A stretch of DNA of 64,000 bases from Eledone cirrhosa. Taxonomy: Eukaryota. Position 1 is the first letter of the stretch, and each line of letters opens with the position of its first letter. This document shows, in pieces, positions 13,301 through 58,768 of this stretch. Under the pieces are notes generated by a model, which worked only from the letters and a program-made list of their open reading frames with translations, searched no databases and had not been told where the DNA came from. Both the position numbers and the translations under genes were made by a program. The stretch spans positions 304,296,001-304,360,000 of the forward strand of contig OZ024743.1 in assembly GCA_964016885.1 (NCBI GenBank). The letters run 5' to 3'.

Positions 13301-13421
13301 TAACGAAGGAAATGTGGTAAGGAACCAGGTGGACCATAACGCACCAAAGTACTCAATACTTGGGGTAGTAGAGTGGGTAATAGGAAACAGTAAGACCCTT
13401 GGGGTCTTACTGATTCCTATT
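13301..13421 (-). mobile_element. pLTR-like terminal fragment (family also at 24101, 45470, 58574) with short fold-back
   Basis: aacgaaggaaatgtggtaaggaaccaggtggaccataacgcaccaaagtactcaatac is shared with 58574 and, inverted, with 24233-24290. Confidence 0.85.
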
Positions 13422-14481
13422 GCAACCGGTCACGTTGTGGCTCAATGAAGAATTAATAAATTAAATAATCAGAGCAATATATCATAAATCATGTCCTTAG
13501 AATTATTAGATAAAATATATAGCATTTCCTCTCCCAATTAGCATAATTAACCATATAAAAAATCAATTAGACCAGGCTATAAGAATAATATATATATATA
13601 TGTGTGTGTGTGTGTTTGTTAGGTGTGTAAAAACAGTTACAGTCAGTGTGCTGTCGAAGCACTCAACACTGTTACGATGTCGGTTTCATTCGGGTTGTAT
13701 TCCAATTTTACCGCTGTAGTCTGCAAAGCGTGTATAGATTTAAAAGAGTCGAGGTCGCCGTTGCAATATATGTATAAACTTTATTTACATATTAGAGCTG
13801 TTTTGATATCGATCAGCTCCGGTTACATGAAGGTAACAGGGGCCGACTCTTTTTCGACAACTTGTCAAATATGGGAGCTTATAGGTTCAAAGACACATCG
13901 AAACTACTAAAAGAGTTGTCTCGGGATTTGTCTATATACACTTATAGATAGTTTTGTTGGGAGTGGAGTAGTAAACTAGGTTTACAGCTGTGTACCGCAG
14001 CGTCAGCTGGAATCTGCTTGACGGCGCTAGCCGTCAGCTTATGGAAATCCATAGCTCGGCTTTCCAAATGTTTATTTATTTAACATACCGTATAGAATTA
14101 GATATACGAAATTCACATACTTGTATGTATACAGCTATTTTGCAGCTAAATATATAATTCTACTTTCAAGTTGAGCCAACGTCCACAGCTCCATAAGCCT
14201 GTTTCAAGTTTCAGTAGATACCAAATGAAATACTGTCTTGATGATGGCCAGAGTCTGAAATGTGCATAGACAGTAGTACCCCGATGGTTCTGCTGGCATC
14301 CGCTGGATGGCGCTAGCGGTCAGCCTTTCGATATTCATAGCTAGGCTTTCCAAAGTTTTAATATCATTAGATATCTCAAATGCATATACTTGCATGCATA
14401 CAGCTATGTCGGAGCTAACATTTTAATATATATATATATAAATATACATATTGTTATGCTTGGGGAGGGTCATATTGTTGT

Positions 14482-14665
14482 AATAATTGTTTCTACTTTT
14501 GGCACAAGGTCACAATTACCCAGTGCATTACTGGTACTTAATTTTATCAACCCCGTAAGGATGAAAGGCAAAGTTAACCTCGGCGGGATTTGAACTCAGA
14601 ATGGCAAGGGCCGTAACTCTATGCGTCAAAGCATGTCGTCTGACCCTCTACCGATACTGCGAATC
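14482..14665 (-). mobile_element. SINE copy nested in another repeat
   Basis: SINE reverse complement; flanks 14447-14485 and 14668-14725 match 3700-3800 inverted. Confidence 0.9.
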
Positions 14666-16404
14666 CAAATATTAACAGAACACACTCACTGTTTTGTTGG
14701 TTTTTGCTTCTGTATATTTTATATCTCCATAGTTGCTTATGTGTGAATGTAATGGGTAAGTAGCTGAATATTCTTCAGATACACGTACAATATCAACATT
14801 CCCAGAGAGATTCAGCATGATACAGTGCGACTCTGGCTACACCAAAAGTTACAATCTAGAATACCATATGCTTGAATACTGCAAATACCACTTACCTTAT
14901 CTAGTACCAATACGTACAAAAGAAATATACCGTATACAATGAGAAACATCTCTATTAGTTCGAGTTAAATATGTACTAATTTAAAGGAAGAATCGTTTTA
15001 GAAATATCAGTATCGTGTTTACTATATATGGTGTATCTGATTCAATTAACAAACGTGTGTGATAAAGTCTATAATGATTATATACACTCCTGTCAAACTA
15101 CAAAATTGATCTCATACATGGATAATTTAAAACTATTTGCAAGATATTATCAGCATCTCGGAAACTCGCTAAATAATTCATATAAATGTATTTGTTGATT
15201 GTATTTGTAAAGATATACAGCTGTGTATATATTTAGTCATATTTTCTTCACCGATAAGTTTAAAGAAACAAAAAATGTTAGATTAGATAAAAGACGTAAA
15301 TAAACCTGATAATATACACCAATTCGAATGGGCTACACACGTGTAAGTCTAATATTACAATTCAGGATAGCTATAAGGAGACTAGTAATCCCAGTCATAA
15401 TATAACTGTTTAGGTCAGATAAATAGACCTGGCATGTAAATTGAAAGCATATAGTGAAGACTGTGCAAATCCAGCGATTGCTCCTCATACACCCATTACC
15501 ACCGTCAGAGGTTTCAGTTGTTATTACCAGACTTTTCAAATATAATCTCTCTTGAAGTTGCTTGTAACAAGCGTGAAAGTAGTGATTCAAATCCAAATCT
15601 CCAGCATTTTTCTCAATATTCAAATAAAATATGTTATCTCTCATATGTGCAATTGTATAGAATATACAAATCAAGGTTTGTTTAAAATGAAATTATAGAT
15701 ATTTAGCAAGTCATAATAATTTATAATAATTTTTTTTTTTTCTTATAATTATATCGGATAATCACGTATTTGTATTTTTTATAGAGCATATATAAAATAA
15801 CAATTTAAACATTCTCTGCACTAGCTACGCTTAATAGCTGTTTTAATGAATATATTCCCATATTAGTCTTTTATCCTTATCTAATTTTTAAATCATAATT
15901 AAATATCTCTTTATATCATATTATTTTATTTTGGAATTAATCTATACATGATGTTTTCCTAATGATGATTTTCTTAGTTTTTTCTCTTTCAATTTCTCTG
16001 GTGTTTATATTATACGTAATATCAATTTAAAACGAAGCGTCTCTATTAACGGCTTTTAAACAATGTTGTATTCATTTGTCATTTTTCATGTGATTGTTGT
16101 TGCTATTATGAGGTATCAATATAATGACATTGGTTCCTATGATGAGGGTAATTGTTTCAAAGTTTTCTACGATTACACAAGAAATAAACAAAAGTAATCA
16201 TAAATACGTGAGTCGAATTTTCCTGTTAGTGTATATAAAATTATTAATTATATACAATTTTAAATGGAACTAGTGAATGAATTCTTTCCATTTTTGCAGA
16301 AATGCATGGCAAAACGGCCTAAATTTCAGGTTTGCTAATTGTTGCATTACATTTTTTTTCTCTGTACCACGACTTTCGAACAACTTGTATTATTTACTTA
16401 TTTG

Positions 16405-16625
16405 AAGGGCGGAAGATTGACCAAATCGGTAGAGCGTCGGACAGCATGCTTTGTGGCATAAAGTTTCCACCTTTCACGGTATTACTTCAGATCCCACCAA
16501 AGTTAACTTTGCATTTCAGCATTTAGCTCCGAAAACATAAAGTACCAGTAACACACTGGGGTCAATTTAATCGACTTTCCCTTCCCCAACAATTGTTGGC
16601 TTTGTGGCTAAATCAGAAACCATTA
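16405..16625 (+). mobile_element. Diverged SINE subfamily copy
   Basis: aatcggtagagcgtcggacagcatgcttt...agttaactttgcatttc...aagtaccagtaacacactggggtc. Confidence 0.75.
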
Positions 16626-56094: not shown

Positions 56095-56275
56095 ATATAC
56101 ATAACAAAGCGGGTGAGATAAGATACCAGGTGATTTCAGAAGATCTCGTTAAGGGTGAAAACAGCGATTCTTTGCTTAAACTTTAATCTTTTATTTTAAT
56201 AAATATTTGCTCTAGGGCTCTTAACCTTATCGAGCCTTCTTTGGATTTTAGTCTTCACATTTATTATTATTACTA
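56095..56275 (+). repeat. Short repeat shared with 6190-6350 and (inverted) 4735-4790
   Basis: tttcagaagatc..gttaa.ggtgaaa.cagcgattctttgcttaaactttaatct..tattttaataaatatttgctcta; ends at (TA)n. Confidence 0.85.
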
Positions 56276-56864
56276 TATATATATATATATATATATATAT
56301 ATATATATATATATATATATATATATATATATATATATATATATATACATACATACACACACATATATATATATATATATATATATATACACACACACAT
56401 AGAAATAATAAGTTTGAAGAAATAATACATAAACGTTACCAAAATCTCTCTCGTCCTGACTGTCAACATTTTTGCTCGATATTTGTGGAAATGTCTAGTC
56501 GTTGCACTATCCTTGAGGCTTCGACCTTATCAAGAGACTCCCTCAGCTAGGACGGAAATTTCCAAAGTGATCGGAACGGTTAATGAATTCAAGGGGGTGG
56601 AAATCCTCACGTGACAAGCGGTCAAGATAGAATACCTGTGAAGGGTAGACTGGTGACAAGTAAGTTCAATGCTAGCAGAAGCAGTTATTTACGACCTAAA
56701 ATTTACTCAACCGTAAGGGATTATAGGTCAAAATCATAAAGAACATATATATATATATATATATATAGTACATGCATGGGAAAAAGTTATATATATATAT
56801 ATATATATATATATATATATATATATATATATAGGAAAATGTTTAACCCCGACAGCAGTACATG

Positions 56865-58010
56865 CATGGAAAATCCTCAAGAAGCCTGTCATACCTGACC
56901 ATATGATGAATGCTATCATGTCATTTCATGAGGGCATGAGAGCATCTATTATATCTATCATTATGTTAAATGGTGAATGCTCTGATCCCTTTAGGGTCAC
57001 AAACGGTGTGAATCAGTGTTATGTCATAGCTCCAGTACTCTTTGATTTGCTCTCTGTAATGCTCCACTATTTATTTTGCAATAGAATCACGGGTGTGAGA
57101 TTTGAATCGCATACATCAGATAAATTAACCACCCATCAGCGTTTTATGGCTAAAACACTTACAGGAGCAAGCATTATTGGAGATTTGCTGTTGGCTGAGG
57201 ATACTATAGTGCTTCCAATATTCTTTGAAGAAGCCTAAGCACAGCTGAAGAGCCTCCGGGTTTCATGTAAAGCATTTGCTTTAACAATCACCGTAAAGAG
57301 GAATGAGGTAGTATATCACCCAAGCCTATCTACCCCCAGATGACTAGTATATGTTGGGCAACGATAGCCGGATCACGGATATCCCCATGTTTACATCACT
57401 TTGAGGGCAAGTATATGAATCATGCGAACTCCTTTATTGATCTTGGCAGCAAGGGGACCTGCTGTGTACCCTTGGACAATAAGATCGTCACACACGCCTC
57501 TAACGCAATTGACCATTTTGGTAAACTAAATTATCGTATATGGAGTGTCAGCGATATCGCCCTTAAATTAAAAGTGTTTTTTTTTTATTGACATGGTACA
57601 GACAACCCTCGTATACGGCCCTGATTCATGTACATTTTACCACAACAACATTTATAAGTTTGATATCTTTCACAAATACTGTCTTCGATCTCTATGAGGT
57701 TAAGTATTTTCTATAGAATCTCCAATGTCGATCTCTTCATGAAGTGTAATATTGGTGGCATTGAATCATTTCTGATGCAATCCCAACTCGAATGGGTTGA
57801 TGATGTCCTACGGATAACTGGCGACTGCACATTTAAGGTACTGTTATATAGTCAACTTCATAATGGTGCACGTAATGTAGGAGGACCATTACTCATATAT
57901 CAAGACAAACTGAACTGCAATCCTAAATTTGTGAACATACATATTGCATCCTTTTAAACCCCGGCTGCTGACCTTGGAAATGGGAAACATATCTCCCATG
58001 AAGGTATAAA
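56865..58010 (+). pseudogene. Degraded RTE/BovB-like LINE RT
   Basis: SFHEGMRA, SDPFRVTNGVNQCYVIAPVLF, DLLLAED (LLFADD-like), FIDLGS, QLEWVDDVLRI, KVLLYSQL. Confidence 0.85.
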
Positions 58011-58573
58011 ATAATTTGGCATGAGTATGAGACGCGCTAGGCGCTGCAACATGTGCTTTATATCAACACACAGTTCAGTCTTCTTAGATATTTTGAAATG
58101 AAAGGTACGAATTTCCTGGATACCCGCAGAAGAGCACAGGAATGGTGGCTTTCACTTAATAATTCTTGCTAAACAGATGTTAGATCTGTCCGGGCATCAA
58201 AGGCAGTTGCCCGATATAGGTTTGTTATTTTTACTGATTTATTTCTTTAAATCGAGACAAGCAAACCATATTGTTTTAAATTAATATTTTTTCAACCGAG
58301 CTAACTTGGTCATTTGCAATTCAAACACATGTATACTTGTATCGGTGTTCATCCCTCTCATATATTCCATTGTATTACACGGCTCGGAAAGATTCCTTCC
58401 TTGAGCTATTCAATTGTAAAAGACTATTTCGAATTTCTAACTCAATCTATGATATATATATATTTATATATATATAAATATATATATATATATATATATA
58501 TATATACATATATATATATATATATATATATATATATATATATATATATATATATATATATATATATATATAT

Positions 58574-58768
58574 AACGAAGGAAATGTGGTAAGGAACCAG
58601 GTGGACCATAACGCACCAAAGTACTCAATACTTGAGGTAGTAGAGTGGGTAATAGGAACCAGTAAGACCCCGACAGCTGAGCTCAAGCCGTTTCGACGGC
58701 TAATTCTGGACCAGAATTAGCCGTCGAAACGGCTTGAGCTCAGCTGTCGGGGTCTGACTGGTTCCTAT
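58574..58768 (-). mobile_element. pLTR-like fragment with palindrome 58652-58768 (centre 58710)
   Basis: ...gacggctaattctgg A ccagaattagccgtcgaaacggcttgagctcagctgtcgggg; (TA)n on both sides. Confidence 0.9.

What the first reader, a model, noticed from the sequence alone, without database searches (positions are those of the whole stretch)
13301..58768. One terminus folded back independently at three loci, with hairpin centres at or just upstream of the ribozyme cleavage site
Seen: the same ~100-nt tail abuts (TA)n at 13301, 24290 and 58574. Each copy has a 5' inverted duplication with a different centre. At 13399-13401 the centre is at the GTC^GGGG cleavage position. At 24155/24156 and 58710 it lies inside helix II. 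The complete ribozyme is at 45470-45561. Inference: cDNA snap-back (self-primed second strand) occurs at the cleaved RNA 5' end or at the helix II structure. This would be a mechanistic footprint for the inverted-pLTR 5' ends known from Penelope elements.
Basis: partly seen in the sequence, partly recalled or inferred. Interest (0 to 1): 0.72.

Follow-up and report, generated by a model that had tools for sequence, protein, structure and literature searches.

The report
Penelope hairpins record both RNA ends
These three mirror-image repeats are stub insertions of a very common Penelope-type jumping gene, and across the genome their fold points fall mostly at the likely start of its RNA and only rarely at its ribozyme cut site, which likely means both cut DNA ends were copied from the RNA and then joined, rather than one copy folding back.

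Summary
The three fold-backs are real members of a huge family (19,657 exact hits of a tail 31-mer). The parent is a 786-codon Penelope-like element with Hydra-clade motifs. In 100 consecutive copies, 75 are short-plus-long hairpins. In 62 of 75 the fold lies 33-47 nt upstream of the ribozyme cut. There an extra G (86 G: 14 A), with a TATA-like box at -29 in the parent, points to a capped RNA start. A minor class (2 of 75, plus locus 13399) ends exactly at the cut, so the ribozyme likely cleaves in vivo. Snap-back of the tail-primed cDNA fits poorly: the short arm reaches further 5' in 17 of 19 asymmetric copies, some arms do not overlap, and loops face both ways (23:16). Twin priming then end-joining fits better. 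Inverted pLTRs, tails and a self-priming hypothesis are published. My searches found no published map of the junctions. The scan reached this reading earlier on other windows and genomes. The window loci were not individually confirmed by reads.

The parts
13300..13398 (-). Locus A long arm: element positions +1 to +99 (tail), outer end at TAT in (TA)n
13399..13400 (.). Locus A junction: 2-nt untemplated TT at the ribozyme cleavage position
   Evidence: the same class genome-wide
13401..13420 (+). Locus A short arm: positions 0 to +19, ending at the fixed short end; abuts the end of another repeat
24098..24155 (-). Locus B short arm (-38/-39 to +19), outer end in (TA)n
24156..24293 (+). Locus B long arm (-38 to +99): helix II 3' strand, GAAAC, helix III, GTC^ (cut between 24193 and 24194), tail
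   Evidence: centre AGTACT is 1 of 100 listed
58572..58711 (-). Locus C long arm (-40 to +99), outer end in (TA)n
58711..58768 (+). Locus C short arm (-38 to +19), 1-nt overlap with the long arm, outer end in (TA)n
45061..45577 (+). 5'-truncated end of a related subfamily, between (TA)n runs, ending at the short end; no adjacent inverted arm
45469..45562 (+). Type I hammerhead motif: core CTGAGAA 45474-45480 (C3-A8 mismatch), cut predicted between 45557 and 45558
   Evidence: not hit by Rfam
45517..45517 (+). Position -41 (A of TTAGTCC), the inferred transcription start in this family
   Evidence: inferred

Best explanation
Each hairpin is one stub insertion of a Penelope-like retroelement in a (TA)n repeat, with two fixed outer ends 80 nt apart, likely made by two reverse transcripts primed from the two cut DNA ends that ran off the RNA 5' end and were joined head to head. 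Shown: the two fixed ends, the pairing of one short with one long end, the clustering of inner ends, the coding parent. Inferred: the endonuclease nicks both strands of (TA)n; one 3'-OH primes at TAT +17..+19 and the other at TAT +97..+99; priming on the 5' copy of these sites, close to the RNA start, leaves only about 60 and 140 nt to copy. Most templates would start at a capped -41 site inside hammerhead loop II, so they lack the 5' half of the core and cannot cleave in cis. A few percent would be cleaved RNAs starting at 0. The two cDNA 3' ends are then joined by microhomology, blunt joining or short inserts. Whether both cDNAs come from one RNA or from two RNAs of the same source copy is open; one RNA is the simpler reading.
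For: Parent L161: ORF of 786 codons with RWR, DKT, YRDD, CxCX5C, a C-terminal nuclease-like region with CxxC and CxH. Ends: 94 of 100 long ends meet TA at +97; 65 of 68 short ends read TATAT; 17,567 short-end and 19,657 tail hits. Both ends are seen with TA behind them in raw reads of another study: 2,596-2,907 and 7,398-10,149 reads per run. Pairing: 0 of 30 short-anchored loci were short-short; 26 had a tail-side arm within the locus, 2 more by position, 2 undetermined (read by eye). Inner ends: furthest arm at -47..-33 in 62 of 75, mode -40/-41. Extra base before -41: 86 G, 14 A in the first 100 of 3,795 hits; in 30 loci read, 15 G and at most 3 A had no template in the opposite arm (p=0.004). 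TATTTAAA starts at -29 from that site. Cleavage class: in the first 100 of 815 hits, 18 have both arms ending at exactly 0 with an insert and 12 are CCCC/GGGG; the base outside these ends is G 6, A 12, T 18 of 36 (hand count). Against single snap-back: short arm further by 10 nt or more in 17, long arm in 2 (p=7e-4; 17:4 if two armless copies are added, p=0.007); arms with no overlap (L117, L132, L179, L189, L200); loop from long arm 23, from short arm 16, loopless TGTACA 60, hybrid 1 of 100 (hand count). Junctions: 58 distinct in 68; microhomology 35, blunt 13, insert 20. In vitro, a PLE protein cleaves and extends both strands and starts at two internal sites (PMC11167929).
Against: The two arms share subfamily markers far more than random pairs (7 of 62 discordant against 42.8 shuffled), which snap-back predicts as well. 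At thresholds of 1 and 5 nt the asymmetry is not significant (35:27, 19:10). 24 arm ends of 150 lie at -42..-45 and two at -47, beyond the proposed start. 9 of the 24 G cases read could come from the opposite arm. No RNA data were laid, so the start site, the cap and in-vivo cleavage are inferred from DNA only. In the predicted fold, -41 sits in a small inner hairpin, so a structural stop is not excluded. The RAD reads are cut at AATT at -34, next to the hot spot, so they cannot map centres. Seven of the 75 hairpins were corrected by hand and 25 of 100 copies were set in other classes. The 100 copies all come from the first 30 Mb of one contig. cDNA snap-back is documented for R2 (PMC11371274).
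Confidence: 0.62

Rival explanations
1. Snap-back (the first reader; 'self-priming' in PMC3846280): one cDNA primed at the tail end folds back at its 3' end and makes the second strand, which stops at +19 and joins the other target end through TAT. A mixed form, in which either of two cDNAs snaps back before joining, is harder to exclude.
For: Explains strict short-long pairing and arm concordance. 23 of 100 centres keep the natural loop in the orientation of the long arm. Snap-back synthesis after full-length cDNA is reported for R2 (PMC11371274 passages).
Against: Short arm further 5' in 17 of 19 strongly asymmetric copies; non-overlapping arms; 16 loops in the short-arm orientation; 60 loopless centres that leave no stem to prime from; both arms carrying the extra G with zero to six bases between them. 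Later inversion or conversion seems rare, since 47 rare variants sit on one arm only against 6 on both.
Confidence: 0.22
2. Two-ended priming as above, but the -41 cluster marks a reverse-transcriptase stop at RNA structure or bound protein in helix II, not a transcription start.
For: -41 lies in a predicted inner hairpin of loop II; ends spread from -47 to -33; long copies read through this point.
Against: An untemplated G at -42 that is not enriched at the cleavage-site ends; TATA-like box at -29 and an initiator-like TTAGT/TCAGT, a layout like that described for Adineta Pen2a (PMC3846280).
Confidence: 0.1
3. The hairpins are a self-copying MITE-like element, so shared centres reflect descent and not mechanism.
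For: High copy number; a few junctions recur two or three times.
Against: 58 distinct junctions in 68 copies; several subfamilies each give hairpins; long and full-length insertions follow the same two-end rule (L161, L166, L169, L170).
Confidence: 0.04
4. The palindromes are library or assembly chimeras.
For: The 13399 junction was not bridged by the reads or contigs laid.
Against: Thousands of loci with distinct flanks share fixed ends; the arms differ by 1.8% at otherwise invariant sites; raw reads of another study show both ends and opposite-strand joints starting at -45..-28 (few start sites per joint).
Confidence: 0.02

Closest known systems
Hydra clade of C-terminal EN+ Penelope-like elements (Craig et al. 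2021, PMC8557442; section 11 and passages read)
   Same: Single ORF, RWK-like (RWR) and DKT motifs, CxCX5C linker, CxxC and CxH in the nuclease region, hammerhead in the pLTR, insertion in (TA)n.
   Different: Unit about 3.1 kb (paper: generally under 3 kb); tail of 80 nt against the 30-40 nt given for PLEs; most copies are 200-nt hairpins. No tree was built.
EN+ PLE insertions with an inverted 5' pLTR and one-sided tail (PMC3846280 passages; PMC8557442 Fig. 2 legend; PMC2377424 abstract and passages)
   Same: Head-to-head inverted arm, palindrome at the junction, tail on one side only, TATA- and Inr-like motifs in the pLTR.
   Different: The paper reads the palindromes as self-priming, possibly on an antisense template; the junction statistics here favour two primed cDNAs ending at sense-RNA 5' ends.
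Poseidon from Anolis (PAc) in vitro (PMC11167929; parts 1-2 of 4 read)
   Same: Both strands cleaved and extended, two internal start sites bounding the tail, uncleaved RNA as the main template, AT-rich targets.
   Different: Different clade. PAc start sites are described as non-homologous to the target, whereas both ends here finish in TAT. PAc RNA-seq showed no reads ending at the ribozyme cut, whereas a minor class of junctions here sits exactly on it.
L1 twin priming (as described in PMC11702581 passages; the original paper was not held)
   Same: A second reverse transcription from the reciprocal DNA end, then end-joining with microhomology, gives a 5' inversion.
   Different: Here the second site is fixed, and the two cDNAs usually overlap up to the RNA 5' end, giving a palindrome. 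That L1 arms do not overlap is recalled.

Membership tests
EN+ Penelope-like elements | [quoted passage not shown] | tested here: met
   L161:3379-5736, 786 codons, YRDD and a C-terminal AYIG region. Pfam gave 0 hits and PDB nothing significant; Atlas neighbours at 0.96-0.99 carry HTH_animal, RVT_1 or GIY-YIG on part of their members.
EN+ Penelope-like elements | Partial-tandem pLTRs with an inverted 5' copy and a one-sided tail | tested here: met
   L161 layout: inverted long-end arm, truncated copy, full copy ending at the short end.
EN+ Penelope-like elements | Type I hammerhead in the pLTR | tested here: met
   Three-stem fold with UUGAGAA core (U3-A8) and GAAAC in L161; palindromic loop III as described in PMC4209133 passages. 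No Rfam hit.
EN+ Penelope-like elements | Ribozyme self-cleavage activity | not testable with these tools
   Indirect only: junction peak at position 0.
Hydra clade | RWK motif and DKG changed to DKT | tested here: met
   RLRWRTFF and SDKTGN in P0001 against the text; RWR rather than RWK.
Hydra clade | CxCX5C linker; CxxC and CxH around the conserved E and N | tested here: met
   CNCPDRSIC; CNLCSEE; NKKDELVTACKH.
Hydra clade | Insertion into (TA)n | tested here: met
   98 of 100 tail ends meet TA-like sequence, 2 continue into the ORF.
Hydra clade | Absence of the CCHH motif in the nuclease; placement in the RT tree | not tested
   No alignment to published Hydra proteins and no tree were made.
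Non-LTR retrozymes | Tandem non-coding units, each with a whole hammerhead | tested here: not met
   The hairpins are single head-to-head units that lack the 5' half of the core, and the parent is coding.

The most novel reading that the evidence does not exclude
About ten thousand or more hairpins are a fossil 5'-end map of one retroelement RNA: a capped start placed inside the ribozyme's loop II keeps the 5' ribozyme half-built, a minority of templates were cut by the ribozyme in the germ line, and a dimeric protein primes both target strands at two fixed sites on a single RNA, so inverted pLTRs and tails arise from one obligate twin-priming step.
Probability: 0.45. Interest if true: 0.7.

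Novelty: new member of a known kind. Interest (0 to 1): 0.5.

Why it matters
How Penelope-like elements make inverted pLTRs and one-sided tails is named as open in PMC8557442, and the in-vitro study found no RNA reads ending at the ribozyme cut (PMC11167929). This family gives exact, testable coordinates: two priming sites (+19, +99), a start site (-41) and a cleavage-site class (0). It favours twin priming over the published self-priming idea and gives indirect evidence that a PLE hammerhead cleaves in vivo. The element type and the insertion layout are already known.

Tried and rejected
Rfam scan: only microsatellite-driven miRNA hits and one sub-threshold Hammerhead_1 hit at 49559-49603; nothing at 45470. 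The repeat finder was swamped by (TA)n. The first genome search was biased to centres like the query and was not used for the centre statistics. Pfam and PDB searches of the parent ORF were empty. Two-random-RNAs model: rejected, arms are concordant. Target-site duplications: 4 of 72 show a 12-mer direct repeat against 0.4 shuffled (maximum 3), two of them low-complexity, so inconclusive. RAD reads could not map centres because of the AATT cut at -34. Locus-level read check at 13399 gave no bridge. A genome-wide count of short-short against short-long hairpins was not obtained, so that point rests on 30 loci. Splice-acceptor reading of TTTAG/TTCAG: rejected because arms keep the AG and no common upstream exon appears at junctions. 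Literature searches for a junction map found none; the library lacks most subscription papers, and I read no supplements, which may bear on Hydra family boundaries.
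Full report
Observation. The three palindromes are present as described. Numbering from the first base after the predicted cut (GTC^G = 0): locus A has arms ending at +1 and 0 with TT between; locus B is a perfect palindrome centred at -39/-38; locus C has arms ending at -40 and -38. In all three the inverted arm ends at TTCCTAT (+19) and the other arm at TAT (+99). The hammerhead at 45469-45562 is a related subfamily with a C3-A8 mismatch and a non-hammerhead minimum-energy fold, while the parent copy folds into three stems with a U3-A8 core.

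The family. A 31-mer of the tail has 19,657 exact hits and the short end followed by TA has 17,567. These count arms, not insertions, and miss diverged copies. A full copy (L161) has a 786-codon open frame with RWR, DKT, YRDD, CxCX5C, CxxC and CxH, matching the text definition of the Hydra clade (PMC8557442). It too has one long end and one short end. Pfam and PDB gave nothing; Atlas neighbours carry RT- and GIY-YIG-related families on part of their members. Raw RAD reads of another study show both ends followed by TA and a depth drop from about 10,000 to about 300 upstream of -45 and about 20 beyond +110; the upstream drop is confounded by a restriction cut at -34.

Unbiased sample. I took the first 100 tail hits on contig C1 and parsed them. 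Classes: 75 short-plus-long hairpins (7 corrected by hand), 11 with no inverted arm, 9 long or complex, 3 tandem jumps, 1 long-long, 1 hairpin of another subfamily. In 62 of 75 the furthest arm ends at -47..-33, with the mode at -40/-41; in 2 of 75 both arms end at 0. Junctions are 58 distinct types in the 68 parsed automatically: microhomology 35, blunt 13, insert 20. The hairpins are therefore built afresh at insertion.

What -41 is. Where the base before -41 is a purine (the element has a pyrimidine), it is G in 86 and A in 14 of the first 100 of 3,795 hits. Reading 30 of these loci, 24 had G; 9 could take it from the opposite arm, 15 could not, against at most 3 untemplated A. Some junctions carry the G on both arms. 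A TATTTAAA begins 29 nt upstream and the site reads TTAGT or TCAGT, like the TATA and Inr layout noted for Adineta Pen2a. Copying of the cap as an extra G is recalled from LINE work; PMC11702581 mentions capping at full-length L1 junctions in a passage I saw only in part. I infer a capped start at -41. A transcript from there lacks the 5' half of the ribozyme core, which explains why most cDNAs cross the cut site. Against this: about one arm end in six lies at -42..-47, and no RNA was examined.

The cleavage class. A pattern for centres near the cut gave 815 hits. In the first 100, by hand count, 18 have both arms ending at exactly 0 with an insert, 12 are CCCC/GGGG (0 blunt, or -1 by CG overlap), 6 have one arm at 0 and the other at +1 or +2 with an insert, and 8 have only the short arm at 0. 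None has both arms at -1 or -2 with an insert. The base outside the 36 ends of the first group is G 6, A 12, T 18 (one-base inserts counted for both ends), unlike -41. Locus A belongs here.

Snap-back or two primers. Snap-back of the tail-primed cDNA needs the long arm to reach at least as far as the short arm. For differences of 10 nt or more the short arm is further in 17 and the long arm in 2; smaller thresholds are not significant (35:27, 19:10). Five copies have arms that do not overlap. At the quasi-palindrome ATTC-AGTACA-GAAT, the first 100 of 173 hits show the loop from the long arm 23 times, from the short arm 16 times, a loopless centre 60 times and a hybrid once, the last being window locus B (hand count). 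Arms share subfamily markers (7 of 62 discordant against 42.8 shuffled), which fits one RNA, one source locus or snap-back alike. No short-short insertion was seen in 30 short-anchored loci. Together these favour two cDNAs, one from each target end, joined at their 3' ends. This agrees with PAc extending both strands from two internal sites. A mixed route, where one of the two cDNAs folds back first, remains possible.

Prior knowledge. Inverted pLTRs with junction palindromes, tails and a self-priming reading are published; (TA)n targeting by Hydra is published. Searches found no map of junctions on the RNA. Papers seen: PMC11167929 parts 1-2 of 4; PMC8557442 passages and section 11; PMC3846280, PMC4209133, PMC11702581, PMC11371274 passages; PMC2377424 abstract and passages; bioRxiv 10.64898/2026.07.22.740005 part 1 of 5; no supplements. 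Earlier notes of this scan reach the same reading on other windows of this genome and on other genomes. I had recorded it before looking and do not count them as support.

Verdict. A real, ordinary kind of insertion of a known clade, whose junctions carry a useful mechanistic record.

Noticed in passing
window 3541-3644, 11476-11761, 48518-48614, 23716-24030, 21732-22668, 24302-24914: Further fold-backs of unrelated sequence, the ones read lying next to (TA)n; probably the same architecture in other families.
   Followed up: no
window 58796-58870: A diverged hairpin of a related hammerhead family lies right after locus C, about 81-84% alike over 31-33 nt.
   Followed up: no
window 49559-49603 (-): Sub-threshold Rfam Hammerhead_1 hit (31.7 bits, cut-off 34), about 150 nt from a (TA)n run.
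   Followed up: no
L161:3405-3452 and 3485-3530: Each fixed end is followed within 3-5 nt by a similar motif (ACTC...GAGT and GCTC...GAGC, each then ACTTT). The second folds as a bulged hairpin (z -2.3); the first does not fold that way in the minimum-energy structure.
   Followed up: partly
L136, L149, L033: Direct-orientation joins in which element sequence is fused to a new copy starting at -40 to -44, as expected from template jumps at the RNA 5' end.
   Followed up: no
window 13421-13580: The short arm of locus A abuts the end of another high-copy repeat that elsewhere follows TA-rich sequence, so the target was likely the edge of a TA run.
   Followed up: partly
L038, L067, L072, window 45474: One subfamily carries a C3-A8 core mismatch while others have U3-A8; ribozyme activity may differ between subfamilies.
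   Followed up: no
L043: A rare long-long hairpin, with the tail on both arms.
   Followed up: no
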